From Candidatus Hydrogenedens sp. (lineage in GTDB: Bacteria > Hydrogenedentota > Hydrogenedentia > Hydrogenedentales > Hydrogenedentaceae), in the NCBI GenBank assembly GCA_049968235.1, contig JBMFRC010000002.1, positions 64,001 through 128,000 of the forward strand: DNA of 64,000 nt, given 5' to 3'. A program made the translations under genes and the position numbers. Under the pieces are notes generated by a model. The model worked only from the letters and a program-made list of their open reading frames with translations. It did not search any database and was not told where the DNA came from. Below, piece by piece: positions 3,194 to 45,056 of this stretch (its first letter is position 1; each line of letters opens with the position of its first letter).

Positions 3194-3420
3194 CTCGTTT
3201 AGTTTTTTTTATTCAATTTTCACTATATAGTTTATACCACAAACCAGTTTGAGATGTCAAGTCAAATTTTCAAAATTTTAAAAAAATTTTATTCCCAAAA
3301 TATAACTGAAATTATTTTCACTATTCCACTACTTTTCATATATTACAAAAATAGAATACTCAACCATAACATTGAAAATAGTATAATAAAATACTACTAA
3401 ACATAGATTGGGATTCATTG

Positions 3421-4823: not shown

Positions 4824-4824
4824 A

Positions 4825-7482: not shown

Positions 7483-7488
7483 ATCTGG

Positions 7489-13852: not shown

Positions 13853-15985
13853 ATGCTTGTAAATATTTTATTACTATTAAACACACTTATTCATGGTACT
13901 AATATCTGGATAGAACCGTCGTGGGTATCTACCAACCTTCCCCAACCATCTCCCAATTCTCATTATGAAGCACAAATTTTTTCTGCAAAAGGCGAAGCAG
14001 AATCTATTCATGTCCATATCGTTGCCGATAAAGACGACCTGAATAATTTATCCTGTGTTTTTGATAAAATGCCTGAAAATTTCCCCAATCCATTGTTATA
14101 CCAGGTATTACCTATACAGGGAGTTCCTCTTCCACAGGGGGGTATGGACCGAAGTCTTATATTTTTAGATATTCTAAAACCTTTCCAACCATTTAATCTC
14201 CTAAAAGGGCAAAAAGCAGTCTTCTGGATAACATTTCAAACCCCACGAACCATAAAAACAGGAATATATAAGACAGAATTGCAAATTAATGTGGAAGAAA
14301 AGAAACTGAAACGTATTCCTATTACCATTGAGGTTTTTGATTTTGAAATTCCGCGAACACCTTCTCTACCTGCTATTAGTTTTTTGGATTGGCAAATATT
14401 ACTACGAACAAATCCTCAATCTAAGTTATCCGATGATTTCTGGAAAAATCTTTTTAATTTTGTATATGACAAACGGCTTCAACTTTCATTAGGATCCTAT
14501 CTACAAAATCTCAACACGGATACTTTCACTATTCCTGAAAATTTGTGGAGAAACTATGTTAATTATATAAAAGAATACCATTCGCAGAATATCATAGACA
14601 TAACACCTCTACTATTACCTCCGGGTCCTCTGGAAACCGTTCGCACACTTTCAAAAAATGAAGAAAATATGATAAATGACATAAGGGGTATAAATAATGT
14701 CGCTATGGGAGCCCTTTTTTTTATGCCAAAAGATACCGGAGAAAATGACGCTTTACGACGATATTTAAGTTCCCTTTCCGAACAACTTCCTCTTGTCACA
14801 AGGATTTTTTGTGGTATTCCCTTACCCCAGTTTAATTTTTTTACAGACATCTGGGCTTTGCCTTTTTCTTCATTTGCCCCGGGATTAATGGAACGATTCG
14901 CAAAAGGTCTATCTATTGCAGATGAAATTACGTTTCCTATTAAGTCTATTTCTTCTTCCACTACCGGATTCATTCCCGGTTCTTATCCTCCTATTTTAAG
15001 TTCTCCATGGCAAGCCATAGATGCATGTATCTATACGGGATGGCTATCCTACCCGGCAGAAAAAGAGGGCAAAAAGGAATGGATAGAGATACAATTGAAA
15101 GAAAAAGTAATTGGTAATAAAATAGCCATTATTTGGGGTCCTGCCCAAATTCCCCAATCTATCGATATTCTAACTTCAAGAGATGGTATTCACTTTCTAA
15201 CATCCTCCGTAAATTGGAAACATATATCAGGGACTCTTTTTGACCCTGCTATATCATACGGAACTTTTAAATACAATCCCGACTTTTCTGCTATCCGTTT
15301 TGAATTTTCCCGAATTAAGAAAGGTGAATTTGTATATATTAAAGAGATACGGCTAAACCCAGATGAACAGAGTAAAGAACCTCGCACGGCTCCTGTAATT
15401 ACCCCGTGGTTATGGATTAATCCAGAGCAATATCCCTCACTTCGCTATGATTCCGCATCCATAGAACCCCGTATTATTCCATGGATATGCTGGAATTATG
15501 GCTTTAGAGGTATTATTCTCACTCCTCTGATTTCATGGGGCAATATTGTTACAAGACCCCAAAACATGGAAACTTTCCTATTTCAACCTCAAGACACATT
15601 ACAAATGTCTACTTTGCTTTATCCTGCAAAAGATACCTATCTACACTCTATTCGTTTAGAACGGCTCCGTGATGGATTGGAAGATTTTGAATATCTATTA
15701 CTTCTCGCTCAAAAAGCACAATCCCAAAAAATAATTAATAAAGAATGCTACAATTATCTAACTATGCAACTTGAAAAATTTGTTCCATGGAATGTTGTTC
15801 AGGAGGATTTTGCAAAAGAATTGATGATGAAAAGACTTTCTATTGGATATGAATTAAGCAACAGAGAATCCCCTTATAAACACGAAAAAAAAGAATTCTC
15901 ACCTAAAAAAGACAACGGAGAAATGGTTCGCATTTCCCCAAAAGTACAAAAAAACTTTTCTATCCGTCAAAAAACCACAGAATAA
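13853..15985 (+). CDS. Secreted hypothetical protein (710 aa), possibly a glycan-active enzyme with a discoidin-like segment
   Basis: N-terminal signal-like hydrophobic stretch. Segment EWIEIQLKEKVIGNKIAIIWGPAQIP..DILTSRDGIHF resembles an F5/8-type-C carbohydrate-binding fold. No catalytic motif recognised with confidence. Confidence 0.4.
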   Translation: MLVNILLLLNTLIHGTNIWIEPSWVSTNLPQPSPNSHYEAQIFSAKGEAESIHVHIVADKDDLNNLSCVFDKMPENFPNPLLYQVLPIQGVPLPQGGMDRSLIFLDILKPFQPFNLLKGQKAVFWITFQTPRTIKTGIYKTELQINVEEKKLKRIPITIEVFDFEIPRTPSLPAISFLDWQILLRTNPQSKLSDDFWKNLFNFVYDKRLQLSLGSYLQNLNTDTFTIPENLWRNYVNYIKEYHSQNIIDITPLLLPPGPLETVRTLSKNEENMINDIRGINNVAMGALFFMPKDTGENDALRRYLSSLSEQLPLVTRIFCGIPLPQFNFFTDIWALPFSSFAPGLMERFAKGLSIADEITFPIKSISSSTTGFIPGSYPPILSSPWQAIDACIYTGWLSYPAEKEGKKEWIEIQLKEKVIGNKIAIIWGPAQIPQSIDILTSRDGIHFLTSSVNWKHISGTLFDPAISYGTFKYNPDFSAIRFEFSRIKKGEFVYIKEIRLNPDEQSKEPRTAPVITPWLWINPEQYPSLRYDSASIEPRIIPWICWNYGFRGIILTPLISWGNIVTRPQNMETFLFQPQDTLQMSTLLYPAKDTYLHSIRLERLRDGLEDFEYLLLLAQKAQSQKIINKECYNYLTMQLEKFVPWNVVQEDFAKELMMKRLSIGYELSNRESPYKHEKKEFSPKKDNGEMVRISPKVQKNFSIRQKTTE

Positions 15986-19139: not shown

Positions 19140-22100
19140 TTAATTTGCCGGACCTACACCAAAGCCATCTTCTCCAACAGAATCGATATGATAACCGCCA
19201 GCATTAAAGAATTGAATTAATCGCAATAATTCAGTAAAGTCTATTTTCCAATTCTTAGGATTATAATCGGATGTGTGATAATTACAACTATGATTTACCC
19301 CATCACCAACATCATATCCATCTTCTGTAGATGTCGATACATCCGCACAGTGATATCCGAATGAATTAAAGAACTGAATTACACGCAATAACTCACGGAG
19401 TTCTATCTTCCAATTCCCGTTTACATCCGCACTATGTCGGGAAGGAGGTTCTCCTTCAGATACACCTTCTACAGTTCCTTCTCCCTCAGGCACACCTTCA
19501 GGACTTCCTTCTTCATTCGAAATCACAGTTGCAACCACAGGATAGACGAGCATATTGGGTCCACCTGTAAACGATACAATAGCAAGGTATTCCCCTGAAG
19601 AAAGGTCATTTGCACAGAATCTCACAACTATGGACTGGCTTTCTCCCGGAGCAAGATTATAATTATAATCAGAGGTAATTTGGAACACATCTGCTGATAA
19701 CTCTGGAGCACTTATTATCGCATTTCCTATCAAAGCAGATGTACTCAATTCAGAATTCATTATAGCAAATGTCCCTTCCACGCACTCACCCGCATTTACC
19801 TCACCTAGATCCAATACATAAGGATTAATAACTGGAACAACAATACTTTGTTCCCCCTCAGTTACTCCTTCGGGTTCGATAGGAAGAAACATTGCTTTTA
19901 GAACTGTATTTTGACTAATACTGAATGTTACAGGATTAGCTGTCCCAGCAAACTGCCCATTAATCGTCCAGCCCTGCCAGATATCTTTCGACGAATTATA
20001 AGTAGCCTGTGCGGTTACTGTGGTTCCAAAATAATAATACCCGGGCTGTAAACCTTCACTACTTTCAGGTGATACCTGAACTGAAACAGGAGCGGTATTC
20101 CCCTCTGTTACCACAGATAATTGATACATCGGTAAAATCTCACCTTCATTTGTCTCACTAAAGCATGGAGCACCACAGCCACCTCCATTACTCTTTGCCG
20201 TTGGGTCAACTGCAGAAACTACAAAGGTGATAATACTTTCTCCACTTTCATTGAAGGTAGCATTATATTCCGCTAAATTACAAACCCTATCTCCATCCGC
20301 ATCACCAAACGCACCTAAATACTGACTTGCAGAAGTATCCACCTGGTTTACTATGAAAGATATCCCTACCTGTCCTGCTATTTGAGAAAGCATTGATAAT
20401 GAAATACCTTCTCCCAATGTGGCTATTCCTGTAAATAATGCCTTCAACTGATTTACATCCACTTTTGATAAAATATTTTGAGGGATTACTCCCTGTGATA
20501 CCGCAGTATCAATTATATTCGTAAACAAGGCATAATTGCTTTGCCATGCAGACAATACACAACAACGGTTCTGAACACCCGGGTTCGCCAATATAATATC
20601 CAGAAGTTGCAATTGAGCAGACTCCACCATTTGATTACCATCGAAATCTGTTGTAATCGAATTAATACTCATCATTGAACAATATGCTTCCCACGCATTC
20701 CGGGCATTCCCTTGAACTCCAATATTACCACATGAGGTAATAGCACACGGTACTGGACAACCTTCAGGAATTTCTCCTTCACCCTCTACAATACCTTCAG
20801 TAGATCCTTCAGCGGAACCTTCTCCTTCAAAATTACCTTCGGGGAGCCCTTCAACAGTTCCCTCAGGTTCAATACACGGAGCATAACGGGACAGGTCACT
20901 TTCCTTATATTCAGAAGGAACTCCCTTTCCTGCTGAAATACCTGCTAATCCATCATACGCTTCTATATTTAACCACGTTATCGCAATCCGACCATCAAAG
21001 AACATCTCTATCTGGAAACTGGCTGTATCATTTGTAAAGTTACCATCAACCTTAACCTCATGATAGGTCACAACGAAACGGTCATCCAACTGCTTCCACC
21101 AGATTTGTCCGCCATCATTCGGTTTCAGATTATCAAACAGACCTGAAACACGCGGTATACGGAAATGATTTTCCGGTGATTCCTTATTCTCGGTATCCCC
21201 TTCTGTAAACGTTAAATAACCATTACTACCTATAAATACACGGTCATAAGCCACTCCATAAAGAATAACCTGTTTCCCGTCTGCCAGAGGTACCTCGACA
21301 TAGGCATCATCACCTAAACTGACCGGTGTTGAAAGTATCGAATCTACCGGGTAATCTGTAATCCCCGTAATAGTGCATGCAAAATAACCGTTAGCATTAT
21401 TCGCCGGAGTTAAAAGTAACCGTTTATTATCCAAGTCATTGTCAACAACAAAGTCTTCTGTAAACCAATCCGTTGCAGGTTGAGAGGGTGGACCGGAGGT
21501 AAAATTCACCTCACAAGGACGGAATTCTAAATCTAAGGGTCCGTTAAACGGGGACCAGGGTATCGTCATAATGGGTAAATCCCACCGACCTCCAAAAATA
21601 CTAATAAATACATTCGGATAAAACTTAACCGTTAAAATAAGGTTACAAATTTCATTATAGTTCATCACAGAGCGATAGCCATCTTCACCTACTTGTACGG
21701 GTACGGATTGTCCCTCCTCCCAGAATAATAAACCTTCCTGTAAACTTATAGTATCACATTCCAGGGAACCATTTGCATCCGCTGAAACATCAATACCTGC
21801 CCCTGATGAAAAAGGAATCCACTTTAACCAGTCCGGTAAAGTAACACCTACTAAGTTCAATATTACTTTTACAAGGTCCACATCAAACAAATGCGTTTTA
21901 GGTGTATTATCTTGAATCGTAGAGGCAGTATCTAACAAAAAACTATTAAAATAATCATATGCAGTTGTACGAAATTCCACATCAGGAATGTAAGGAACAT
22001 CTACTGTAAACGGAGGAATAATTCCTATATCAAACCCCGCTTTCATGAGCAATTCCGCTCCGAAATCATACCCCCAGAAGCCACTGGCATTACCTGCTGT

Positions 22101-22943
22101 TAACCATGGCGGATTTAAATGGAAAAAGCCCTGCACATCCGCCTGGTAATTAGCAACTGCTGCAGCGCGAATACGCACCTGAACTGGAAATCCTCCCGGA
22201 TTTTCCTCAAATCCACCCTCTCCTTTACCATTAGGCCACCAGCCTGAATCAAAACTTAGGTTTAACCCTTTCATTGGTGCGGTAAACTGGACAGGTTGCG
22301 TTTCTACTGCTTTACCTAAGTCTCCCTTTACATCAACCTTAACTATCTCTTCAACACCACCTGTAACAGTATATTCTGTATTAATTGATTTCATACCCGA
22401 ACAGGGTTCTAACACTTGTACAATAACTCCAGACTTCCCATCCTGTTGATAATCCCAGCGAATTAAAACGGGACGAACCCCATTTTCCGAATAAATCTCT
22501 TTCCTCTGCTCTACATATAAAAGTTTATCTTTCAAAAAACATTTCGTCTCACTTACACCTTCATTCCCTTTCGTTTGAACAATAGACCATTCTAAAGAAA
22601 TGTTTTCTAATTGCAATCGAAAATTCTTGCTACCATCGTTTGACATTATCTTTTCCGTCTTATCAAAATATTTCTCTAATAATGCACGATTCATTGAAGT
22701 AAAGCCAGGAAAGCCAACTCCTTGTTTACCGAATTGCATTATACTTCGACGAACAACGCCATCTTCGCTGAATTCCACATATTCCAGAGAACCCTCTTCT
22801 CTTGCTAACAACTGAAGTTTTGCATCAGGAGGAATATTATCTCCTTCCCAGCGTGCTGAATATACCCAGTATGATTCTGTAAAACCAACAGCAGAAATAC
22901 ATACAATAAGAATTAATGCAAACATTAACTTCTTGTATTCCAT
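19140..22943 (-). CDS. Giant secreted multidomain protein (1267 aa) with (P)EG-rich linkers and C-terminal dockerin/EF-hand-like tandem repeats
   Basis: Signal peptide MEYKKLMFALILIVCISAVGFT. Low-complexity linkers EPEGTVEGLPEGNFEGEGSAEGSTEGIVEGEGEIPEG and EEGSPEGVPEGEGTVEGVSEGEPP. Two C-terminal repeats: DVNGNWKIELRELLRVIQFFNSFGYHC and DYNPKNWKIDFTELLRLIQFFNAGGYHI. An internal GDADGDRVCNLAEY Ca-loop-like motif. Confidence 0.7.
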   Translation of the reverse strand: MEYKKLMFALILIVCISAVGFTESYWVYSARWEGDNIPPDAKLQLLAREEGSLEYVEFSEDGVVRRSIMQFGKQGVGFPGFTSMNRALLEKYFDKTEKIMSNDGSKNFRLQLENISLEWSIVQTKGNEGVSETKCFLKDKLLYVEQRKEIYSENGVRPVLIRWDYQQDGKSGVIVQVLEPCSGMKSINTEYTVTGGVEEIVKVDVKGDLGKAVETQPVQFTAPMKGLNLSFDSGWWPNGKGEGGFEENPGGFPVQVRIRAAAVANYQADVQGFFHLNPPWLTAGNASGFWGYDFGAELLMKAGFDIGIIPPFTVDVPYIPDVEFRTTAYDYFNSFLLDTASTIQDNTPKTHLFDVDLVKVILNLVGVTLPDWLKWIPFSSGAGIDVSADANGSLECDTISLQEGLLFWEEGQSVPVQVGEDGYRSVMNYNEICNLILTVKFYPNVFISIFGGRWDLPIMTIPWSPFNGPLDLEFRPCEVNFTSGPPSQPATDWFTEDFVVDNDLDNKRLLLTPANNANGYFACTITGITDYPVDSILSTPVSLGDDAYVEVPLADGKQVILYGVAYDRVFIGSNGYLTFTEGDTENKESPENHFRIPRVSGLFDNLKPNDGGQIWWKQLDDRFVVTYHEVKVDGNFTNDTASFQIEMFFDGRIAITWLNIEAYDGLAGISAGKGVPSEYKESDLSRYAPCIEPEGTVEGLPEGNFEGEGSAEGSTEGIVEGEGEIPEGCPVPCAITSCGNIGVQGNARNAWEAYCSMMSINSITTDFDGNQMVESAQLQLLDIILANPGVQNRCCVLSAWQSNYALFTNIIDTAVSQGVIPQNILSKVDVNQLKALFTGIATLGEGISLSMLSQIAGQVGISFIVNQVDTSASQYLGAFGDADGDRVCNLAEYNATFNESGESIITFVVSAVDPTAKSNGGGCGAPCFSETNEGEILPMYQLSVVTEGNTAPVSVQVSPESSEGLQPGYYYFGTTVTAQATYNSSKDIWQGWTINGQFAGTANPVTFSISQNTVLKAMFLPIEPEGVTEGEQSIVVPVINPYVLDLGEVNAGECVEGTFAIMNSELSTSALIGNAIISAPELSADVFQITSDYNYNLAPGESQSIVVRFCANDLSSGEYLAIVSFTGGPNMLVYPVVATVISNEEGSPEGVPEGEGTVEGVSEGEPPSRHSADVNGNWKIELRELLRVIQFFNSFGYHCADVSTSTEDGYDVGDGVNHSCNYHTSDYNPKNWKIDFTELLRLIQFFNAGGYHIDSVGEDGFGVGPAN

Positions 22944-23165
22944 TGCAACTCTCCTTTATATTTTTTATTGATTTGTATTAAATTTCTTAATCCCTCAAAC
23001 ATAATTCTAAAACCACAAAACCATAAATACCATAAAAATTGACCTTTTATATAATCTTACCATTATTTTATACAAATTTCAATTTTTTTATGACAAATTT
23101 TTATTTTGATAAAAGAATAAAATAAGGTGTATGATAAATTAAACAGAAAAAGAAGGAGTACTGCA

Positions 23166-23498
23166 ATGATTAAAGATAGAATTGTTCGTATAAAGATGAA
23201 AAAGAATTTCAAGGAACAAAAGCCCTTTTCTTTCGTTGGGAAAATAACCCTCTGGTCTGAAAATTGGATAGCCTTAGAAGGAAAAGGAATTATGTTAACC
23301 CGTCAGCAGTCCAGTGGGGTACAAATAGATGAAGGAATTAAAGTTCTTTTAATCCCTCGTGAAAGCATTGACCATATACAGGTATTGCCAGATAATTTTG
23401 ATATAACCCAATTAAAAGTTACCACTGAAGGACAACAATTAGTTTTAGTAATTGATGGGAAACGCGATTCTATCCTTGGAGAAATGGGAGAAGGATAA
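23166..23498 (+). CDS. Hypothetical small protein (about 110 aa)
   Basis: ORF with a good RBS aaggag 7 nt upstream of ATG 23166 (MIKDRIVRIK...). The six-frame track extends it to a GTG at 23127. No family recognised. Convergent with efp. Confidence 0.4.
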   Translation: MIKDRIVRIKMKKNFKEQKPFSFVGKITLWSENWIALEGKGIMLTRQQSSGVQIDEGIKVLLIPRESIDHIQVLPDNFDITQLKVTTEGQQLVLVIDGKRDSILGEMGEG

Positions 23499-23518: not shown

Positions 23519-24085
23519 TTAACCAGTAGACACACGCTCGATATACTTACCTGTTCGAGTATCTATTTTTATAACATCACCTTCTTTAATAAAGAGGGGA
23601 ACCTGTATTTTTGCACCACTTTCCAGAGTACAGAATTTTAATACATTTGTAGCGGTATCTCCACGCACAGCAGGTTCCGCAGAAACAACTTTTAATTCAA
23701 CAAACGGTGCCATTTCCGCAATAATAGGTTTATCTTCCAGAAAGTAAATAGAGCATAAATCGGACTCTTTCAAAAATTTCTTCTGCTCACCTAACATTTC
23801 TTCAGGAATAAAGGTCTGTTCATAAGTTTCTAAGTCCATAAAATAAAGGAGACCTTCCGACTCATAAAGATATTGCATCTTCCGCTCCAGCAACATTACT
23901 TCCTCCACTTCATCGGACATGCGAAAAGTTACATCCATTGTCCTTCCTGTTTTTACATTCTTTAATTTCGTTTTTAACATGGCTCGCCAATTACCGGGAG
24001 TAATATGTTGGAACTCCACAACTACCCAGATATCTCCTTCATAACGAATTGCCATTCCTCTGCGAAAACCAGAAACAGAAATCAT
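23519..24085 (-). CDS. efp: Elongation factor P family protein with atypical beta3-beta4 loop (188 aa)
   Basis: Length and overall sequence are EF-P-like (three-domain, ..GDTATNVLKFCTLESGAKIQVPLFIKEGDVIKIDTRTGKYIERV). The conserved KPGKGQA loop reads TPGNWRAM. Confidence 0.8.
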   Translation of the reverse strand: MISVSGFRRGMAIRYEGDIWVVVEFQHITPGNWRAMLKTKLKNVKTGRTMDVTFRMSDEVEEVMLLERKMQYLYESEGLLYFMDLETYEQTFIPEEMLGEQKKFLKESDLCSIYFLEDKPIIAEMAPFVELKVVSAEPAVRGDTATNVLKFCTLESGAKIQVPLFIKEGDVIKIDTRTGKYIERVSTG

Positions 24086-24209: not shown

Positions 24210-27047
24210 ATGAATTTTATAGTCTTCATTCCGTTGCTACTTCATCTCCTTCATTTCCCACAAATAAACAATCCTTTTGAAAATGCACATTTAATCATAG
24301 ACCCACGTATGAAAGATGTTATCCCTAATAACAATTTCATGACGAACACAAAAAATGACTGGATAAAAGACAGTCCCCACCAGATACATACACTATTCAG
24401 AAAAATTTTTGTTGTTGAAAAATTTCCTAAATTGGCAGAGATATATATTACTGCAGATGACTATTTTAAACTCTATATAAATGGTGAACATATTTTAGAA
24501 GGTCCAACAAACGGTTATCCTTTTGCCTACCCTTATTTTAAGTTTAACCTGACCCCATTCATTAGGACAGGGACAAATATACTGGCTATTCACACATATT
24601 ACAGAGGGTTAATAAATCGTGTTTGTGTCAGTGGTGATAATCGTTCCGGGCTTATCTTGAAACTTATACTTACCGATATGGAGGGACGAAAAACAGAGAT
24701 TGTATCTGATACAACATGGAAATGCTTCCCTCTGGATGCATTTATTACGACTGACACTATAGGTTATAAAACACAATTCATTGAGAATATAGATATGCTA
24801 AAATACCCAAAAGACTGGCAATCCCTTGATTTCGATGATAGCCACTGGATAAACCCCGAATTAGGAAAAAGTGACTACACTTTTGTTGACTTACCTGCAA
24901 AACCATTAGAAATAAAAAATGTTTTCCCCAAAGAAAAGAAAAAAATTAATTCAGGACATTTCATTTTTGATTTCGGTCGCGAAGTCGTTGGATACACGAG
25001 AATAAAAACTAGGGGTGAAAGAGGACAAAAAATGATAGTTTATCATGGGGAAGAACTGGATGAAAACGGATATGTCCGCTGGCAAATGCGAGCATACTGT
25101 GATTACAAAGAAGAAATCATTTTATCCGGTGAAGAAGATATTTCTCCTTTCTATGAATACCGTGCCTTTCGATATATTGAATTGGATAATGCTCCCGAAG
25201 AAACCTCCGTATGGGTTGAAGAACGCCATTACCCATTTGACACCACAAAAGTTCTCTTTTATTCTTCAGATAAGGATTTAACAAATATATGGGATATTTG
25301 TCAATTGGGAGTTCGACTTTGCTCGCAAGAAGGCTTTTTGGATTGTCCTTCCCGTGAAAAAGGACAATATTTAGGAGATGCAGTTATTACATCTCGTTCC
25401 TTTATGTGGCTTACAGGAGATACTTCATTAACAAAAAAATCATTAATAGATTTTTCTCTTTCAACAAAAATAGATCCTGGTCTAACAGCGGTTGCACCTT
25501 CCGGGTTTATTCAAGAACTTGCCGAATACTCCCTTCAATATCCATTAATGCTATGGGAATACTATCGTCATTCCGGTGACAAAGATTTTCTAAAAGCAAT
25601 GGCAACAGAATGTTTACCATCACTCCTATACTATTTTGCACAGTTTGAAAATGAATCCGGCTTATTAAACTCTACCGGGAAAAAACCTATTTTGATTGAT
25701 TGGCCCAAAAACCTTCGTGATAATTTCGATTATGATTATGCCCAGAACAAACCTAATGCGGTCGTTAATGCTTTTTATTACGGAGCCGTTACAACAACAC
25801 TGGAAATACAAAAGACGCTCGGCATAGAAGACACTGCACTCAAAGAAAAAGCAGAAAAAATATGGAATGGCTATCAAAAAATCTTTCTGGACTCTGAAAA
25901 GAAACTTTATAAAGATGCTCCAAACTCGAAACATTATGCTCTGCATAGCAATGCTCTACCTCTCTACTTTGGATTGGTAAAAGATGAAAAAGTAAAAGAA
26001 AATATTTTCTCTTTAATTGAACAAAAAGGACTTTACTGTGGTGTTTATATCGCATCTTACATCATTGAAGCATGCTTCAAAGAAGGAAATCCCGAATTAG
26101 GATGGAAACTATTAACAAACAACACAGAATATTCATGGAAGGAAATGCTTCGCAATGGGGCTACTTCCTGCCTTGAAGTGTGGAAACCCGAAATGAAATC
26201 AAATATGAGTTGGTGTCATGCATGGAGTAGTTGCCCTATTTATCTCTTATCGGAATATGTATTAGGTCTAAAAATCGGCAAACCCGGCTGGGAAGAAATC
26301 CACTTCTCCCCAGCAAAAATAAACGATTTACCCGATATGTTTCTCATTAAACCCTTACCTGATGGAGGTTATTGCTCTGTGAATATAAAAAACAATAACT
26401 ATAACCTGACCGTTCCTGAGAATATTCATGTAATAACAGATGGTGTGCAGTGTGGAAATATTTCTGTTCATACTGTTTTATCTCACCAAAGTCCGACAGA
26501 ACTATCCGAAGAAGAAAAGACACTACTGAAAAATTATCAGTGGGACATAAAGACAGAAAACACTCGAGGAATTTGGGTTTCTATCAAAAAACAAAAATTA
26601 TATGTAATTGAAAAAAACAAAGTAGTATGGCAAACTCTTTGTTCCACTGGGATAAAAGGAATAGGTGAAAAATTAGGTTCCGAACAAACCCCCAGAGGGT
26701 GGCATCAAATTGTTGAAAAAATTGGTGACAATGCCCCATGGGGACAAATCTTTCGCAATCGTCAACCCGTAGGGATATGGGATAAAAGTCAGATTACAGA
26801 TGAATCCCTTGTCCTAACTCGAATACTGCGTCTTGATGGCTTGGAAGAAACAAAGAATAAAGGTATTAATAACGAAGGAGAAATTGTAGATTCGTATCAA
26901 CGATTCATTTACATTCATGGCACCAATAAAGAAGAACTTATAGGCACTCCTTTTACACGTGGTTGTATCGGTCTAACTAATAATGATGTGATTATGCTCT
27001 ACAACATTGTTCCCCTCAACACGAAAGTTCTTATTACAGAAGAATAA
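24210..27047 (+). CDS. GH78 alpha-L-rhamnosidase-like glycoside hydrolase fused to a C-terminal L,D-transpeptidase (YkuD) domain (945 aa)
   Basis: N-terminal Bac_rhamnosid_N-like YITADDYFKLYINGEHILEGP. Six-hairpin catalytic-region motif LDCPSREKGQYLGDA. C-terminal YkuD-like block ..IYIHGTNKEELIGTPFTRGCIGLTNND (His ... Cys catalytic pair). Confidence 0.7.
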   Translation: MNFIVFIPLLLHLLHFPQINNPFENAHLIIDPRMKDVIPNNNFMTNTKNDWIKDSPHQIHTLFRKIFVVEKFPKLAEIYITADDYFKLYINGEHILEGPTNGYPFAYPYFKFNLTPFIRTGTNILAIHTYYRGLINRVCVSGDNRSGLILKLILTDMEGRKTEIVSDTTWKCFPLDAFITTDTIGYKTQFIENIDMLKYPKDWQSLDFDDSHWINPELGKSDYTFVDLPAKPLEIKNVFPKEKKKINSGHFIFDFGREVVGYTRIKTRGERGQKMIVYHGEELDENGYVRWQMRAYCDYKEEIILSGEEDISPFYEYRAFRYIELDNAPEETSVWVEERHYPFDTTKVLFYSSDKDLTNIWDICQLGVRLCSQEGFLDCPSREKGQYLGDAVITSRSFMWLTGDTSLTKKSLIDFSLSTKIDPGLTAVAPSGFIQELAEYSLQYPLMLWEYYRHSGDKDFLKAMATECLPSLLYYFAQFENESGLLNSTGKKPILIDWPKNLRDNFDYDYAQNKPNAVVNAFYYGAVTTTLEIQKTLGIEDTALKEKAEKIWNGYQKIFLDSEKKLYKDAPNSKHYALHSNALPLYFGLVKDEKVKENIFSLIEQKGLYCGVYIASYIIEACFKEGNPELGWKLLTNNTEYSWKEMLRNGATSCLEVWKPEMKSNMSWCHAWSSCPIYLLSEYVLGLKIGKPGWEEIHFSPAKINDLPDMFLIKPLPDGGYCSVNIKNNNYNLTVPENIHVITDGVQCGNISVHTVLSHQSPTELSEEEKTLLKNYQWDIKTENTRGIWVSIKKQKLYVIEKNKVVWQTLCSTGIKGIGEKLGSEQTPRGWHQIVEKIGDNAPWGQIFRNRQPVGIWDKSQITDESLVLTRILRLDGLEETKNKGINNEGEIVDSYQRFIYIHGTNKEELIGTPFTRGCIGLTNNDVIMLYNIVPLNTKVLITEE

Positions 27048-27274
27048 AAATAGAATAGGTAGCCATTTTACGAAAATAATTCATCAAATTTAATCACTAC
27101 TCATTGTTAAATACCCTTTTATACTTATCAGGATGCTTTGCTAAAGTTTTTTAGTTAATTGACGATAATAAGAACAGACAGTTGAATATAGTGATGTAAA
27201 TCCTCCATGAGTTATGAGTGTTCGTCCCAACTCTCATAAATTTATTTGAGTTCCATAGTTATATACTTCCTTGA

Positions 27275-27317
27275 GTGACGCCATAAAAGACCCAATATTA
27301 TGGCGTCCTTCTTTTTA
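27275..27317 (+). terminator. Rho-independent terminator
   Basis: Perfect 10-bp stem gacgccataa / ttatggcgtc with an 11-nt loop, followed by cttctttttatg. It lies in the 330-bp gap after the GH78-LDT gene. Confidence 0.6.
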
Positions 27318-27379
27318 TGCCTTTCAATTCATATATCCTTTATAATTTCAATATTATCTAAATACAGACCATTTAAACT

Positions 27380-27892
27380 ATGATAAGAACAAAATATTTC
27401 CTTTATTTCTTGATATTAATACTCCTGTTCAGTTCGTGTGCTCGACAAAGGCACAGAGTTACCTTTCAGTCTCCTTTTCAAGGTAGAGAACAGGAAACCT
27501 GGGGTTATCCCCTACCCGAAACATCTTTACAGATTACCTCTCCTTTTGGAGAAATTCGTAAAAAAAGAAACTTATCTTACTGGCATCAAGGAATTGACAT
27601 AAAAGCCAGGAAAGGAACTCCTGTGCTGGCAGTACAAAAAGGTATTGTAACTTTTGCCGGAAAGTCAAAAAACTATGGGTTATTGGTTTGTATAGAACAT
27701 TCAGGACTATGGGAATCCAGATATGCGCATCTCAACACTATTGAAGTGAAAAAAAATAAAAAAGTGAAGAAAGGAGAGGTCATCGGAAGAGTTGGAGAGA
27801 CCGGAAATGCAACGGGTCCCCACCTTCATTTTGAACTAAGGAAAAATGGAGTACCTGTTAATCCTGCTTCCTTGCTTCCAATAAAATACTGA
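27380..27892 (+). CDS. M23 family (LytM-like) peptidoglycan endopeptidase, lipoprotein (170 aa)
   Basis: Lipobox LLFSSCA. M23 motifs HQGIDI ... HLHFEL (HxxxD and HxH zinc ligands). Confidence 0.85.
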   Translation: MIRTKYFLYFLILILLFSSCARQRHRVTFQSPFQGREQETWGYPLPETSLQITSPFGEIRKKRNLSYWHQGIDIKARKGTPVLAVQKGIVTFAGKSKNYGLLVCIEHSGLWESRYAHLNTIEVKKNKKVKKGEVIGRVGETGNATGPHLHFELRKNGVPVNPASLLPIKY

Positions 27893-27893
27893 A

Positions 27894-30380
27894 TTATAAA
27901 AAGTCTCCATATAGTTCTTTTGCACATTGCGGACAAATTCCATGGCTAAATTCTGCTTCTGTATGCTGGCGAATATATACCTCCACCTCATGCCAGTAAC
28001 CTGTATCATCACGAATTCTCTTACAGCGTGCACATATCGGTAACAAACCATGAAGTTTTTTGACAGTATTCAATGCCTCCTGTAATTTTTCTACAGTCTC
28101 TTCTAACTCTTTTGTCTTTTGTAAGTTCTTTTTTTCCAATCGGATGCGTTCCAGAGCCTGAGCATACACAGAAGTTATCCACTCAATAGATTCCCAATGC
28201 GACGGGGTATAATTATCCTCTGAATTTACTGCTATGACGAAAACTAATTCATGAGAAGGGGTATAAGAAGGATAACATAATAATCTATTTACAGGAACTT
28301 TCCCAAAAAGTAAATGTTCTTTATCCTGAACATCATTTATAAGCAAAGGTATACCTGCCTCAATAAAACGGCGCAAAATTTTTTCTTTTTTAACCAATTC
28401 CTTCATATTGAAAGAGATTTCAAATTTATTTATTTTCTTTTTGTCTATACCATAAAAGAAATACATAGCCCTGTCAGAGTCAAAATATCCAGTAAAGCAA
28501 AATGCACTATTGAGTATATCTACACCTGTTTGACATACCATTTGCGTTAGTTCTCCTTCGTCTCGCAAATTCAAAAGCGAACGAGCAAACCCTGCATATA
28601 AAGAACTGATAACAACCTCATTTGCTAATTGTTTCTCTAATCTCTTTTTATCTGTAATGTCTATATGTGTTCCGGAAAAACGGATAGGATTCCCTTTTGA
28701 ATCTCTTGCCGAAACTCTTCCATAAGTATGTATCCATTGTTTATACATACCTCTATAGTAAATCTGATATTGGACATTAAAGACGCCGTCTTCTTTTGCA
28801 AGTGCTTCTCCCAATTCTTTTCGAATTAATTCTCTATGCACAGGAACAATACAATTGAACCAATCTTCTAATGTATAAAACTTCTTTGGGCTTATTCGAA
28901 ACATATCTAAAGCAGACTGATTCATTGTATATTCATTCTTCAAAATATCCCATGACCATAAACCGATACTTCCCAATTCTGAAGCAACACGGAGGTTTTC
29001 TTTTACATTTTTTAATTTCTCTTCCGATTCCATAAAAGCGGTTATATCCATTCCAATACCTACAAGTTTTTGGGCATATTTCCCCTGTCGCGAGATACAT
29101 TCCCCAATAGTGCGCACCCAAACCAATCTATCTCCGGGTAAAAGCAACCGATGGTCAACAGCAAAACTATTTGTTGCCCCATGAATACAAGGCTTGACTG
29201 CATGCCAAAAATTTACACGGTCTAAGGGATGTATATATTTCCACCACTCTGTTAATTCATCCGGAACCCTTAAATACGGGAATAAGGTTTGTAAACCAGA
29301 TGATATTATCTTTCGCGTATCTACTTCATATTCCCAAACACCAATATGCCCCGTCTTTAAGGAAATTTGATGAAGATTTAATAATGCCTTTTCTTGCCAG
29401 TATTGTTCCAAATAAGAAATGGTCCCTGTTAAAAAAGGTATTTTCTCTTCCAGATAACGGCAAATCTCTTCTGTATCTTTATTATCATTCCTATCTGCAA
29501 AAAGAAATAGCCATTTCCGCTGTCCCGCAGTATTTAATGGAAGGAAAATTAACGAACGATACCCCAATAAATGACACAGTCCACAATATTCTGTATCTTT
29601 AAAACAATGAACAAGTATCCGTGCTTTTTCCGGTGTTGCATTAAACCGCAAAAAGTCTTTATACCTAAGTTCGGATGGAATATAAATAGCACGACCTTCA
29701 AGAAAATCTTCACATACCCTTGTAATATTTTTATCGGAACAAAGTAATGAACAAAAATCTACTTCTTTATCATTCTTGAACACCTGTATATGATTTTTAC
29801 CTTCCTTCATCAATGCACATACTACTTTAAAATCAAATAGATTACTTAAACCAGATAACAACCGTGACATGCCTTCTTCCAACCGATATACACTATTATT
29901 AATCGTTAAACCTATTATAAATTCATCAAACAACTTATCAAATAAGTTTCGTAAATATCGACGATTTCTTAAAATATGATTCCGAATAATTCTCAAAGAA
30001 CAATTTAAGTGGCGGGTATTTTTTGACCCTAATGGCACACAATACACATTGTCTCTTGCTAATTGAGGCTCTATAATCTCCGGAATTTTAGAACTGACTG
30101 TAAAAAGAATAATGTTGTCATAATTATCTAAAATCCTCTTATAAGAACCCCACTTTGGTATATTTTCTATATAATCAAAAACCATCAATTCATAATTAAT
30201 TTCACCGTTTAATAAACGAGTTAAACTTTGAGTAGTAGCACAGTAATGCATCTTTACTTTCTGATCCCAAAATCTTTCATTTAAAAGAATCTTATCTCTC
30301 TCTTCTTGGGGTTGTCCTACCACTAATATATTCAGACAGGAAAAGGAAGGAAACTTATTTATTTTCTTTTCAGATAACAT
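27894..30380 (-). CDS. Multidomain PAS/GAF signalling protein with C-terminal CxxC...CxxC module (828 aa)
   Basis: Two PAS/PAC-like segments (e.g. GVWEYEVDTRKI..., GLWSWDILKNEYTMNQ...YGRVSARDSKGNPIRFSGTHIDITDKK). Coiled-coil stretch. C-terminus HGLLPICARCKRIRDDTGYWHEVEVYIRQHTEAEFSHGICPQCAKELYGDFL. No kinase, GGDEF, EAL or HD-GYP domain recognised. Confidence 0.7.
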   Translation of the reverse strand: MLSEKKINKFPSFSCLNILVVGQPQEERDKILLNERFWDQKVKMHYCATTQSLTRLLNGEINYELMVFDYIENIPKWGSYKRILDNYDNIILFTVSSKIPEIIEPQLARDNVYCVPLGSKNTRHLNCSLRIIRNHILRNRRYLRNLFDKLFDEFIIGLTINNSVYRLEEGMSRLLSGLSNLFDFKVVCALMKEGKNHIQVFKNDKEVDFCSLLCSDKNITRVCEDFLEGRAIYIPSELRYKDFLRFNATPEKARILVHCFKDTEYCGLCHLLGYRSLIFLPLNTAGQRKWLFLFADRNDNKDTEEICRYLEEKIPFLTGTISYLEQYWQEKALLNLHQISLKTGHIGVWEYEVDTRKIISSGLQTLFPYLRVPDELTEWWKYIHPLDRVNFWHAVKPCIHGATNSFAVDHRLLLPGDRLVWVRTIGECISRQGKYAQKLVGIGMDITAFMESEEKLKNVKENLRVASELGSIGLWSWDILKNEYTMNQSALDMFRISPKKFYTLEDWFNCIVPVHRELIRKELGEALAKEDGVFNVQYQIYYRGMYKQWIHTYGRVSARDSKGNPIRFSGTHIDITDKKRLEKQLANEVVISSLYAGFARSLLNLRDEGELTQMVCQTGVDILNSAFCFTGYFDSDRAMYFFYGIDKKKINKFEISFNMKELVKKEKILRRFIEAGIPLLINDVQDKEHLLFGKVPVNRLLCYPSYTPSHELVFVIAVNSEDNYTPSHWESIEWITSVYAQALERIRLEKKNLQKTKELEETVEKLQEALNTVKKLHGLLPICARCKRIRDDTGYWHEVEVYIRQHTEAEFSHGICPQCAKELYGDFL

Positions 30381-43682: not shown

Positions 43683-45056
43683 TTATTTTATTAAACATGT
43701 AATAACTGTTTTTGATGGAATGCTCAAACGAAAGTATTTATCCCTACAATGAACAGCCACCTTTTTTTCTTGTGTTTCTGCATTGGCTATAACTAAAACA
43801 ATATTTCCATCCGGGTTAAGAAATGCCACATTGTTAAAATAACGGTCACCGGAAGTGGAAGAAATACGATAAGCACCACGTTTTACAAATTTCATAAATT
43901 GTCCATACATATAATAGTCATACCGGTATTCAATTGTATTATCTTCCTTTAATACAATCATTGTAGGACTGGCATTATGAGGACCACGGTTCGGCTTTCT
44001 TTGCCAATCCAAACATATCACCCACAAATTGTATGACCGCGACCAATTTCGAAATATCTCTATTATTTTAACAGCACCTCGGGATAAAAATGTGGAACCT
44101 TCTGTAAAATAAATATGTTTATCCGGAAACTCATTATGCAAAATACTTTGTGCATCTACTTTGCCTTCATATAAATGGAAACCTGTTCCCTCTACATATT
44201 TAGAGGCATTAACATCTGTAAAAATGCTACGGGGAAAATCCAGAAAATTCCAGTTGTGGTCCCAACACCATATTTTCGTTGAAATCCCTGCTTTTTCGAA
44301 ACAAGGACCTAAAAAATCACGAATAAAATCCCTTTGCTGTTCAGCAGTCCATAGACAAGTTGGGTAATCTTTATCATTCATTCGTGGTTCATTCTGCGCG
44401 GTAATAGCATAAATAGGAATTCCTTCCGCTGTATACGACTCAATAAATTTTTTGAGATAATTCGCATAAGCAGGATAATATTCTTCTAACAACACACCTC
44501 CATTCATTGTTTTTGTGTCTTTCATCCATCCCGGAGGGCTCCAGGGTGAAGCAAAGAAAAGCACTTCCGAATTTTTCTCCTGCACCATTTTAATAATGGG
44601 GATTACATATACTCGGTCTTTATCAATTGAAAATCGGTTGAGTTCTGGGTCTATTTCTCCTTCCGGACAATCATTATAAGAATAATATGCTTCACCAACA
44701 AAATCCGATGTTCCTATACATAAACGGATAAGATTCATTCCAATCCCCTTTTCCGGGTCAACCAATTTTGTAATAACTTCTTCTCGTTTGTCGGGGGATA
44801 ACTTCATCAGGTTGAAACAGGTCGAATGCTCTAAAGAACCTCCCATACCTAATATCGTTTGATACTTCTCCTCCGGATTTATTTCTATTAAAATATCCCT
44901 CGTCTTCTTAGGTTTTTCTATCCGAACTGCCTGTTCCGTTAATAAATACTTACCATCTTCTGAACTCATCCACACTTGAACTGTTTCTCTCTCCAGAGAA
45001 AAAGCATTTACAAACACAAATAATATACAAAAAACAATTATAAGGGTTCTTCTCAT
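43683..45056 (-). CDS. Glycoside hydrolase family 30-like protein, secreted (457 aa)
   Basis: Signal peptide. GH30 N-terminal signature ILGMGGSLEHS..GIGMNLIRLCIGTSDF. TIM-barrel and beta-sandwich length. Confidence 0.7.
   Translation of the reverse strand: MRRTLIIVFCILFVFVNAFSLERETVQVWMSSEDGKYLLTEQAVRIEKPKKTRDILIEINPEEKYQTILGMGGSLEHSTCFNLMKLSPDKREEVITKLVDPEKGIGMNLIRLCIGTSDFVGEAYYSYNDCPEGEIDPELNRFSIDKDRVYVIPIIKMVQEKNSEVLFFASPWSPPGWMKDTKTMNGGVLLEEYYPAYANYLKKFIESYTAEGIPIYAITAQNEPRMNDKDYPTCLWTAEQQRDFIRDFLGPCFEKAGISTKIWCWDHNWNFLDFPRSIFTDVNASKYVEGTGFHLYEGKVDAQSILHNEFPDKHIYFTEGSTFLSRGAVKIIEIFRNWSRSYNLWVICLDWQRKPNRGPHNASPTMIVLKEDNTIEYRYDYYMYGQFMKFVKRGAYRISSTSGDRYFNNVAFLNPDGNIVLVIANAETQEKKVAVHCRDKYFRLSIPSKTVITCLIK

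What the first reader, a model, noticed from the sequence alone, without database searches (positions are those of the whole stretch)
24210..27892. Fusion of a GH78 rhamnosidase-like enzyme with an L,D-transpeptidase domain, followed by an M23 endopeptidase
One polypeptide combines a complete GH78-type alpha-L-rhamnosidase architecture (Bac_rhamnosid_N-like block plus LDCPSREKGQYLGDA six-hairpin motif) with a C-terminal YkuD L,D-transpeptidase domain (HGT...RGCIGL). This is an unusual pairing of glycan hydrolysis with peptidoglycan cross-linking chemistry. The next gene encodes a lipoprotein M23 peptidase. The arrangement suggests a cell-wall remodelling module that couples removal of a rhamnose-containing wall glycan with 3-3 cross-link formation or lipoprotein attachment.
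Basis: partly seen in the sequence, partly recalled or inferred. Interest (0 to 1): 0.6.

Follow-up and report, generated by a model that had tools for sequence, protein, structure and literature searches.

The report
Rhamnosidase fused to cell-wall peptide enzyme
One gene of this uncultured Hydrogenedens bacterium does join an intact rhamnose-cleaving enzyme to a peptidoglycan-peptide (YkuD) enzyme, a pairing kept across its phylum and absent from the searched literature. The neighbouring M23 peptidase gene is only a chance neighbour.

Summary
ORF 24210-27047 (945 aa) carries a complete GH78 alpha-L-rhamnosidase architecture plus a C-terminal YkuD domain, and ORF 27380-27892 is an M23 peptidase with a lipobox-like N-terminus.

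The fusion is real. More than 100 protein clusters (40-79% identity) carry it, and every named one is from Hydrogenedentota. The GH78 residues D378, E383, D390 and E656 and the YkuD residues H903 and C919 are conserved. The AlphaFold model is compact (pLDDT 93, pTM 0.92).

The interpretation needs three corrections.
- **M23 is not a partner.** In five related genomes (62-79% identity) the downstream gene is GH42-like, and a terminator-like hairpin separates the two genes here.
- **The YkuD domain is not a canonical L,D-transpeptidase type.** It belongs to a clade sister to ElsL, a cytoplasmic L,D-carboxypeptidase, so trimming of stem peptides is at least as likely as 3-3 cross-linking.
- **YkuD is the constant part across the family.** Relatives with a dead, truncated or deleted GH78 body all keep an intact YkuD site. 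Some species split the gene in the linker.

Most family members have classic signal peptides. The window protein's N-terminus is hydrophobic but atypical. This is a new domain architecture built from known parts, and its substrate is unknown.

The parts
24210..27047 (+). Whole GH78-YkuD fusion gene (945 aa plus stop)
   Evidence: ORF; four Pfam domains; 100% identical NCBI protein P0001; AlphaFold2 pLDDT 93.3 and pTM 0.92.
24210..24275 (+). N-terminal hydrophobic segment (aa 1-22), a likely export signal or signal-anchor but atypical: no K/R and no AXA cleavage site
   Evidence: Kyte-Doolittle 10-residue maximum of 2.64, no basic residue. Low-confidence helix 6-13 in the model. Most homologues have classic signal peptides such as ..PLWA|DVF...
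24429..24860 (+). Bac_rhamnosid_N beta-domain (aa 74-217)
   Evidence: Pfam PF08531, 6e-13.
24939..25205 (+). GH78 concanavalin-like domain (aa 244-332)
   Evidence: Pfam PF05592, 6e-18.
25254..26261 (+). GH78 (alpha/alpha)6 catalytic domain (aa 349-684)
   Evidence: Pfam PF17389, 3.7e-40. The top 11 Foldseek PDB hits are all GH78 rhamnosidases.
25341..25379 (+). GH78 acid motif DCPSREKGQYLGD (D378, E383, D390). E383 aligns with the proposed general acid, RhaB E572
   Evidence: phmmer alignment to 2OKX. Conserved 78/80, 79/80 and 78/80. Codons given.
26175..26177 (+). E656, aligned with the general-base candidate RhaB E841
   Evidence: alignment. Tabulated 80/80 in alignment A1, but the E of the two dead-GH78 members is an alignment artefact; BLAST shows that stretch deleted in them.
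26265..26474 (+). GH78 C-terminal beta-sandwich (aa 686-755)
   Evidence: Strands 687-755 in the model. PF17390 was detected in many homologues.
26475..26567 (+). Variable linker with two short helices (aa 756-786). This is where the gene is split in some relatives
   Evidence: Helices 767-775 and 778-782. Only 29.5% mean pairwise identity. dN of 0.55 against L092. Splits seen in L001 and L093-96.
26568..27035 (+). YkuD catalytic domain of the ElsL-sister clade (aa 787-942)
26916..26972 (+). YkuD active-site stretch, H903 to C919. The window reads TRGCIG where the family consensus is SHGC[IV]R
   Evidence: H903 and C919 are 80/80. R921 is 73/80, replaced by Cys in the Hydrogenedens genus and by Gly only here. 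H917 is 68/80 and is Arg here.
27277..27320 (+). Terminator-like hairpin (10-bp stem, 11-nt loop) followed by a T-rich run, between the fusion gene and the M23 gene
   Evidence: Sequence. RNA fold -15.8 kcal/mol, z = -3.5. The scanner missed it because it only allows loops of 3-8 nt.
27380..27892 (+). M23 metallopeptidase with a lipobox-like N-terminus. It is a neighbour only, not part of the fusion's system
   Evidence: Pfam PF01551, 2e-36. Absent downstream of the fusion in every related locus examined.

Best explanation
This is a self-contained, single-gene, two-enzyme protein specific to the phylum Hydrogenedentota. An ordinary RhaB-like GH78 alpha-L-rhamnosidase body (N, concanavalin-like, six-hairpin and C domains) has acquired a C-terminal YkuD cysteine enzyme. 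The two pack into one rigid particle.

Shown here:
- Both catalytic residue sets are intact and under purifying selection.
- The fusion is conserved across the phylum.
- The M23 gene is not a conserved partner.

Inferred mechanism:
1. The protein is exported by Sec. This is clear for most family members and less clear for the window copy.
2. The GH78 domain removes terminal alpha-L-rhamnose by the inverting GH78 mechanism, with E383 as acid and E656 as base.
3. In the YkuD domain, the C919 thiolate, assisted by H903, attacks the mDAP carbonyl of a peptidoglycan tetrapeptide stem, releases D-Ala and forms a thioester.
4. The thioester is then most probably resolved by water (L,D-carboxypeptidase trimming, as in ElsL) rather than by an amine (cross-linking).

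The YkuD reaction is the evolutionarily constant function of the family. The rhamnosidase activity is an add-on that several lineages have lost. The likeliest role is periplasmic processing of wall-derived or envelope glycopeptide material, not a dedicated cross-linking module.
For: Domains and fold:
- Pfam domains.
- The top Foldseek hits are all GH78 rhamnosidases (2okx 6.6e-50, 6i60, 3w5n, 6gsz).

Catalytic residues:
- RhaB D567, E572, D579 and E841 align with D378, E383, D390 and E656.
- These are tabulated as conserved in 78-80 of 80 fusions, and H903 and C919 in 80 of 80. The 80/80 for E656 overstates it, because BLAST shows that stretch deleted in the two dead-GH78 members.
- The proposed roles of the RhaB residues are from PMC3663046. 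For SaRha78A, acid Glu636 and base Glu895 are named in PMC7263609, but I did not align them to the window residues.

Selection and packing:
- Mean pairwise identity is 62.9% for the six-hairpin domain, 59.3% for YkuD and 29.5% for the linker.
- dN against L092 is 0.057 for YkuD, the lowest of any domain.
- The model has pLDDT 93.3 and pTM 0.92.

Phylum restriction:
- In the scan of GTDB species representatives (best 80 loci kept), every hit covering both halves is titled Hydrogenedentota, apart from one 'uncultured bacterium' and two titled Nitrospirales/Nitrospiraceae, which I take to be mislabelled.
- The GH78 part alone has 37-42% identical homologues in Paenibacillus, Clostridia, Kiritimatiellae, Lentisphaeria, Planctomycetes and Omnitrophota, and the four checked carry the same catalytic motif.

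YkuD subtype:
- The domain scores 118 bits on the ElsL model and 21-25 bits on Ldt models.
- Its nearest leaderless relatives (41-48% identity) score 143-200 bits on ElsL.
- ElsL is a demonstrated L,D-carboxypeptidase that converts M4 to M3 (PMC8649774).
- A neighbour-joining tree separates the fusion-associated clade from the leaderless clade with 91/100 bootstrap support.

YkuD as the constant element:
- The 923-aa forms with a dead GH78, the roughly 580-aa truncated forms and the 250-aa forms with the body deleted all keep R.IYIHGTN...SSHGC[IV]R.

Export and substrate:
- Classic signal peptides are seen in most homologues.
- Hydrogenedentota are predicted to be diderm with mDAP-type peptidoglycan (PMC11406978).

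M23 is not linked.
Against: - No substrate is known for either domain, and no rhamnose biosynthesis or wall-glycan genes were found among the window genes scanned (six ORFs beyond 54.4 kb were not scanned).
- The fold cannot separate carboxypeptidase from transpeptidase. Ldtfm, LdtMt2, Csd6 and Pgp2 all score alike.
- The domain is well below the ElsL family cut-off (118 against 270 bits), and ElsL itself is cytoplasmic and single-domain.
- The window copy has the unique variant TRGCIG, lacking the Ser-His and Arg of the motif, so its chemistry may differ or be weakened.
- Its N-terminus has no basic residue and no AXA site.
- In sister species the gene is split, leaving a leaderless YkuD. That fits a cytoplasmic location at least as well as a periplasmic one.
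Confidence: 0.5

Rival explanations
1. This is a cell-wall remodelling module in which the fusion protein removes a rhamnose-containing wall glycan and makes 3-3 cross-links or attaches lipoproteins, working together with the downstream M23 endopeptidase.
For: The YkuD fold and the His/Cys pair are those of L,D-transpeptidases. M23 is a peptidoglycan endopeptidase family. murB and a GT9 gene lie within 8 kb. Most family members are exported into a compartment containing mDAP-type peptidoglycan.
Against: The M23 adjacency occurs only in this genome. The 79%-identical relative L092 and also L086, L087, L001 and L093-96 have a GH42-like gene there instead. Synteny breaks exactly after the fusion gene. 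A terminator-like hairpin lies between the two genes. Canonical Ldt models score only 21-25 bits against 118 for ElsL. The window copy lacks the conserved Arg and Ser-His.
Confidence: 0.12
2. The YkuD enzyme is the real effector, and the GH78 body serves mainly as a scaffold or glycan-recognition platform, analogous to the large scaffold domain of YcbB/LdtD. Rhamnosidase catalysis is ancestral baggage that is retained in many lineages but is not needed for the family's core role.
For: At least two lineages have lost the GH78 acid motif and deleted the E656 region while keeping a perfect YkuD motif: the 923-aa P0113/P0119/P0259 group (also L018 and L019) and the roughly 580-aa forms. P0283 and P0251 keep the signal peptide, the mature N-terminus and YkuD, with the GH78 body deleted. 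These forms nest among the fusions in the YkuD tree. A pTM of 0.92 indicates rigid packing.
Against: In 78 of 80 full-length fusions, including the window protein, all four GH78 carboxylates are strictly conserved. The six-hairpin domain is the most conserved part of the protein. That level of conservation argues for continuing catalysis there.
Confidence: 0.2
3. In the Hydrogenedens genus, including the window protein, the protein is cytoplasmic or membrane-tethered. It acts in salvage as an intracellular RhaB-like rhamnosidase plus an ElsL-like recycling L,D-carboxypeptidase acting on imported fragments.
For: The genus N-termini have no K/R, and the window copy has no AXA site. Split genes leave an intact leaderless YkuD in 19 contigs of one species and in two other clusters. 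ElsL relatives are cytoplasmic.
Against: A strongly hydrophobic N-terminal segment is retained in all 80 proteins. Deeper-branching members have canonical cleavable signal peptides. No SignalP-type predictor was available.
Confidence: 0.15
4. The YkuD domain is only a peptidoglycan-binding or self-anchoring tag that retains a nutrient-scavenging rhamnosidase at the sacculus through a long-lived thioester.
For: The genomic contexts lean towards glycan degradation: GH42-like neighbours, sulfatases and GH30 in the window, and dockerin/FGE-sulfatase proteins in L002.
Against: It does not explain the dead-GH78 and GH78-deleted derivatives that keep the YkuD catalytic site, nor the leaderless split copies.
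Confidence: 0.05

Closest known systems
GH78 alpha-L-rhamnosidases, closest solved structure RhaB of Bacillus sp. GL1 (PDB 2OKX); also DtRha 6I60, SaRha78A 3W5M/N and AtRha 6GSZ
   Same: The multi-domain fold is the same (Foldseek E of 1e-46 to 1e-50). The catalytic carboxylates are aligned. The subfamily motif DCP[ST]REKGQY.GD is shared with GH78-only enzymes of Paenibacillus, Kiritimatiellae, Planctomycetes and Omnitrophota.
   Different: Sequence identity to solved structures is only about 18-22%. The protein carries a C-terminal YkuD domain that is absent from every solved GH78 structure matched here and from every GH78 homologue outside Hydrogenedentota in the scan. Most members are exported.
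ElsL (LdtK) of Acinetobacter baumannii, a cytoplasmic YkuD-family L,D-carboxypeptidase of peptidoglycan recycling (PMC8649774)
   Same: It is the best family-model match (118 bits over 154 of 164 model positions). Signature blocks GSEQTPRGWH..KIG, LTRIL.L.GLE and R.IYIHGT are shared. There is 41-48% identity to leaderless ElsL-like proteins.
   Different: The score is below the curated cut-off of 270. The domain forms a separate sister clade (91/100 bootstrap). It is fused to a 750-aa glycosidase behind a signal sequence. It has extra N-terminal linker helices. The window copy has TRGCIG in place of SHGCIR.
Canonical periplasmic L,D-transpeptidases (B. subtilis YkuD, E. faecium Ldtfm, M. tuberculosis LdtMt2, E. 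coli LdtA-E, YcbB)
   Same: The catalytic fold and the His-(15 residues)-Cys geometry are the same. Like YcbB, the catalytic domain sits on a large non-YkuD body.
   Different: Sequence similarity is weak: 18-25 bits. There are no LysM, PG_binding_1 or Big domains. The partner is a glycoside hydrolase.
Csd6 / Pgp2 / Bd1075, periplasmic YkuD-fold L,D-carboxypeptidases
   Different: These were not detected at the sequence level. They carry an NTF2-like partner domain, not a GH78 body.

Membership tests
GH78 alpha-L-rhamnosidase | Multi-domain architecture with an (alpha/alpha)6 catalytic domain flanked by beta-domains | tested here: met
   Pfam N, concanavalin-like and 6H domains are above cut-off. 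The C domain appears in homologues. Foldseek top hits are all GH78.
GH78 alpha-L-rhamnosidase | General acid Glu and general base Glu (RhaB E572/E841; SaRha78A E636/E895) plus flanking Asp residues | tested here: met
   RhaB residues align with E383, E656, D378 and D390. These are tabulated as conserved in 78-80 of 80 fusions; the E656 count overstates it for the two dead-GH78 members. The SaRha78A residues are from the literature and were not aligned here.
GH78 alpha-L-rhamnosidase | Hydrolysis of alpha-L-rhamnosides | not testable with these tools
   This needs an enzyme assay.
YkuD / L,D-transpeptidase superfamily | YkuD beta-sandwich fold | tested here: met
YkuD / L,D-transpeptidase superfamily | Catalytic His and Cys in H-x(15)-C | tested here: met
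   H903 and C919 are present in 80 of 80 sequences.
YkuD / L,D-transpeptidase superfamily | Full (S/T)-H-G-C-h-(R/N) motif | tested here: not met
   The window protein reads T-R-G-C-I-G, while the family consensus is S-H-G-C-[IV]-R. Gly at 921 occurs in 1 of 80 sequences, and the Hydrogenedens genus has Cys there.
YkuD / L,D-transpeptidase superfamily | Formation of 3-3 cross-links or protein-peptidoglycan links | not testable with these tools
   This needs muropeptide biochemistry.
ElsL-class recycling L,D-carboxypeptidase | Score above the NCBIfam NF040925 cut-off (270 bits) | tested here: not met
   The score is 117.9 bits. It is nevertheless the best-matching family by a wide margin.
ElsL-class recycling L,D-carboxypeptidase | Leaderless, single-domain, 105-200 aa cytoplasmic protein (criteria of PMC8649774) | tested here: not met
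   It is the C-terminal domain of a 945-aa protein with an N-terminal hydrophobic or signal segment. Only the split copies P0121-P0123 meet this criterion.
ElsL-class recycling L,D-carboxypeptidase | Membership of the leaderless clade in a tree | tested here: not met
   The fusion-associated clade is separated from the leaderless clade with 91/100 bootstrap support.
Operon or functional module with the M23 peptidase | Conserved adjacency and co-transcription | tested here: not met
   M23 is absent downstream in L092, L086, L087, L001, L093-96 and L002-L004. There is a 332-nt gap with a terminator-like hairpin.
Peptidase M23 (neighbouring gene) | HxxxD and HxH zinc ligands | tested here: met
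   H69-D73 and H148-H150 were read from the sequence. Pfam 2e-36.

The most novel reading that the evidence does not exclude
The rigidly packed GH78 body and the ElsL-sister YkuD domain form one composite site for a glycopeptide. An example would be a rhamnose-bearing peptidoglycan fragment or a wall polymer linked to peptidoglycan in Hydrogenedentota. This would reveal an undescribed wall modification and a new class of exported enzyme that reads the sugar and the stem peptide together. The dead-GH78 relatives would then be lectin-guided versions of the same enzyme.
Probability: 0.12. Interest if true: 0.75.

Novelty: new variant of a known kind. Interest (0 to 1): 0.45.

Why it matters
- **A new lead on exported YkuD enzymes.** ElsL showed that a leaderless YkuD protein is a cytoplasmic recycling carboxypeptidase. 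Here a sister clade of ElsL is exported and, in a whole uncultured phylum, welded to a glycosidase. That identifies a large and uncharacterised group of exported YkuD enzymes, with 70 clusters at E below 1e-30, whose chemistry is unknown.
- **A natural experiment in domain loss.** The series runs from active GH78, to dead GH78, to truncated, to deleted, plus the split genes. It shows which half carries the selected function.
- **An annotation gap.** For genome annotation, the NCBI label 'family 78 glycoside hydrolase catalytic domain' hides the second enzyme.
- **Possible insight into the phylum.** If the two activities share a substrate, this would say something new about the envelope or the feeding habits of Hydrogenedentota.

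Tried and rejected
- **Artefactual fusion.** Rejected because of an identical NCBI protein and more than 100 independent clusters.
- **M23 partnership.** Rejected by synteny.
- **Relocated neighbours.** I first thought the GH42-like and PAS-kinase genes of relatives had simply moved to 11.3-16.0 kb in the window. tblastn showed no GH42-like homologue in the window and only a 34%-identical kinase, so I withdrew that idea.
- **Link to the divergent efp gene.** I considered a link through EF-P rhamnosylation. I dropped it because the adjacency holds only within the genus, the enzyme has an N-terminal hydrophobic signal-like segment, and GH78 enzymes cut O-glycosides (own knowledge).
- **Secreted stand-alone YkuD next to GH78-only genes.** P0126 and P0124 are not adjacent to GH78 genes, and P0111 (GH78-only) has no YkuD neighbour.
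- **Missing fusions in one search.** The word-indexed search with the YkuD domain unexpectedly did not return the fusion proteins at all. The exhaustive HMMER search did.
- **Fold comparison.** It could not separate carboxypeptidase from transpeptidase.
- **Distance between active sites.** Model coordinates are not exposed, so this could not be measured.
- **afdb50.** The library was unavailable.
- **Signal-peptide prediction.** No SignalP-type predictor was available, so only hydrophobicity and charge heuristics were used.
- **Paralogues.** Neither domain has a second copy in the window.

Full report
**What is there**

The window has low G+C (33-42%). Its genes match MAGs of Candidatus Hydrogenedens. 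ORF 24210-27047 (+) encodes 945 aa. After a 332-nt gap, ORF 27380-27892 (+) encodes 170 aa.

Pfam places four domains on the large protein: Bac_rhamnosid_N (74-217), the GH78 concanavalin-like domain (244-332), the six-hairpin catalytic domain (349-684, 3.7e-40) and YkuD (787-942, 9e-21). The small protein is Peptidase_M23. The small protein has HxxxD, HxH and a lipobox-like LFSSC (read).

**The GH78 half is a competent, ordinary rhamnosidase**

- phmmer against the PDB finds only GH78 enzymes, with RhaB 2OKX best at 1e-36. RhaB D567, E572, D579 and E841 fall on D378, E383, D390 and E656. For SaRha78A, names the acid Glu636 and base Glu895, but I did not align those to the window residues.
- A full-length AlphaFold2 model is very confident (pLDDT 93.3, pTM 0.92). 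Its 11 best Foldseek PDB hits are all GH78 rhamnosidases.
- In 80 aligned fusion proteins the four carboxylates are tabulated as present in 78-80 of 80. The 80/80 for E656 overstates it, because BLAST shows that stretch deleted in the two dead-GH78 members.
- The GH78 part alone has 37-42% identical homologues, with the same DCP[ST]REKGQY.GD motif in the four checked, in Paenibacillus, Kiritimatiellae, Planctomycetes and Omnitrophota. Homologues also occur in Clostridia and Lentisphaeria. None of these carries a YkuD domain.

**The YkuD half is real but is not a textbook L,D-transpeptidase**

- H903 and C919 are invariant. The family consensus is R.IYIHGTN-(x8)-SSHGC[IV]R[LM].
- At the sequence level the domain scores 118 bits on the NCBIfam model for ElsL and only 21-25 bits on enterobacterial Ldt models.
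- ElsL is a leaderless cytoplasmic YkuD protein shown to be an L,D-carboxypeptidase that converts M4 to M3 (PMC8649774).
- Leaderless proteins of about 160 aa with 41-48% identity score 143-200 bits on that model.
- A neighbour-joining tree puts all fusion-associated domains in one clade, sister to the leaderless clade, with 91/100 bootstrap support.
- The window copy is unusual. It reads TRGCIG, and the Arg after the Cys is Gly only here and Cys in the rest of the genus. Even so, the domain has the lowest dN of the whole protein against the closest relative (0.057). dS is near saturation, so the ratios are only rough.

**Distribution**

The fusion is found in more than 100 clusters at 40-79% identity. 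In the scan of GTDB species representatives, of which the best 80 loci were kept, every hit covering both halves is titled Hydrogenedentota, apart from one 'uncultured bacterium' and two titled Nitrospirales/Nitrospiraceae, which I take to be mislabelled. No paper in the library mentions rhamnosidase together with YkuD, and the GH78/transpeptidase and Hydrogenedentes/rhamnosidase searches gave nothing relevant.

**The M23 gene is not part of it**

- The five related loci at 62-79% identity have efp upstream (L092, L086, L087, L001, L093-96), and the four that extend further also have the 110-aa and roughly 1270-aa genes. All have a convergent GH42-like gene downstream.
- More distant loci have unrelated neighbours on both sides.
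- Against L092, upstream proteins are 85-89% identical, but synteny stops exactly after the fusion gene.
- Between the fusion gene and M23 lies a 10-bp hairpin followed by a T-run (-15.8 kcal/mol, z = -3.5).

**Family anatomy**

This is the most informative result. An exhaustive HMMER search with the YkuD part recovered the fusions and also a graded series of relatives.

- Some are 923-aa proteins in which the GH78 acid motif is degenerate (FRKYPSVDMSQHLGE) and the E656 region is deleted.
- Others are proteins of 866, 796, 699 and about 580 aa that lack N-terminal GH78 domains and the catalytic residues (P0255, at 699 aa, still keeps the E656-region Glu).
- Others again are roughly 250-aa proteins that keep the signal peptide, the conserved mature N-terminus and YkuD, with the GH78 body gone.
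- All retain a perfect YkuD active site.
- At least one truncated form is named Hydrogenedentes.
- These forms nest among the fusions in the tree.
- In the other direction, GH78-only exported proteins also exist, at least one of them named Hydrogenedentes (P0108-P0117).
- In three clusters close to the window's lineage the gene is split in the variable linker, leaving a leaderless YkuD. L001 has a 35-nt spacer. L093-96 have a 20-nt frame-shifted overlap that is identical in four independent assemblies, in a species seen on 19 contigs.

**Location**

All 80 aligned proteins have an N-terminal hydrophobic core, and 39 have a basic n-region. Many show textbook ..A-x-A|D-V-F sites. The window protein and its genus lack K/R, and the window copy has no AXA site. 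Export is very likely for the family and only probable for this copy. Hydrogenedentota are predicted to be diderms with mDAP-type peptidoglycan, so the canonical YkuD substrate exists in their periplasm.

**Interpretation**

The best-supported reading is a single-gene bifunctional enzyme. It combines an active inverting rhamnosidase with a YkuD cysteine enzyme acting on the mDAP-D-Ala bond of stem peptides. By nearest-relative reasoning, and because leaderless split copies persist, it is more probably a hydrolase (L,D-carboxypeptidase) than a cross-linker.

The YkuD reaction is the conserved core of the family, and rhamnosidase catalysis is dispensable in some lineages. Whether the two sites share one glycopeptide substrate is open.

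**Verdict**

This is a new domain architecture (a new variant of known kinds), of moderate interest.

Noticed in passing
L090:6432-7991 and L091:332-2092 (upstream of the truncated pseudo-GH78-YkuD genes at L090:8001-9731 and L091:2599-4344): Both truncated, GH78-dead YkuD proteins sit directly downstream of a polytopic membrane protein. That protein has a 'Sulfatase'-fold (alkaline-phosphatase superfamily) domain and no CxPxR sulfatase motif. The two copies are 31% identical, and the gap in L090 is 9 nt. This looks like an envelope-modifying transferase pair. No homologue is present in the window.
   Followed up: partly
L093-L096:1735-4576; L001:1985-4824: In sister Hydrogenedens species the fusion gene is split in the linker. 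A GH78 ORF of 761 aa overlaps, by 20 nt and in another frame, a leaderless 191-aa YkuD ORF. The junction is identical in four independent assemblies of a species seen on 19 contigs. Another species has a 35-nt spacer with a GAGG upstream of the ATG.
   Followed up: partly
window 26955-26972 (aa 916-921): The window's YkuD active-site stretch reads T-R-G-C-I-G, against the family consensus S-H-G-C-[IV]-R. Gly at 921 is unique among 80 homologues, and the rest of the genus has Cys there, as does a leaderless Chitinivibrionales-like subgroup (SHGC[IV]C).
   Followed up: partly
window 27277-27320: There is a strong hairpin with an 11-nt loop followed by CTTCTTTTTAT. The consensus terminator scan missed it because of its loop-length limit.
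   Followed up: yes
window 3418-10083: Three sulfatase-family genes sit in a row. Two of them (885 and 864 aa) have N-terminal extensions of about 310 aa and an SGSH_C domain. Together with GH30 (43683-45056) and a weak GH123-like ORF (13853-15985), they point to a glycan-degrading lifestyle.
   Followed up: no
window 19140-22943 (-): This 1267-aa protein has no Pfam hit. It has Glu/Gly-rich linkers (EGEGSAEGSTEG...) and two C-terminal repeats (..NWKIELRELLRVIQFFN.. and ..NWKIDFTELLRLIQFFN..). It is 88.6% identical in L092 and syntenic across the genus.
   Followed up: no
window 23519-24085 (-): The efp gene is divergent from the fusion gene. By my reading, its loop sequence ITPGNWRAM puts Asn where E. 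coli EF-P has the modified Lys34 (alignment from memory, not tested). The efp adjacency holds only within the genus.
   Followed up: no
window 27894-30380 (-): This 828-aa PAS/GAF protein ends in a Cys-rich motif, CARCKRIRDDTGYWHEVEVYIRQHTEAEFSHGICPQCAKE. Like M23, it is absent from this position in relatives.
   Followed up: no
window 40981-43662 (-): This is an 893-aa protein made almost entirely of ankyrin repeats (Ank_2 score 434 bits, 12 stretches).
   Followed up: no
window 23127-23498 (+): This small ORF (123 aa from a GTG start, called as 110 aa in relatives) has no Pfam hit. It is 84.5% identical in L092 and conserved between efp and the 1267-aa gene.
   Followed up: no
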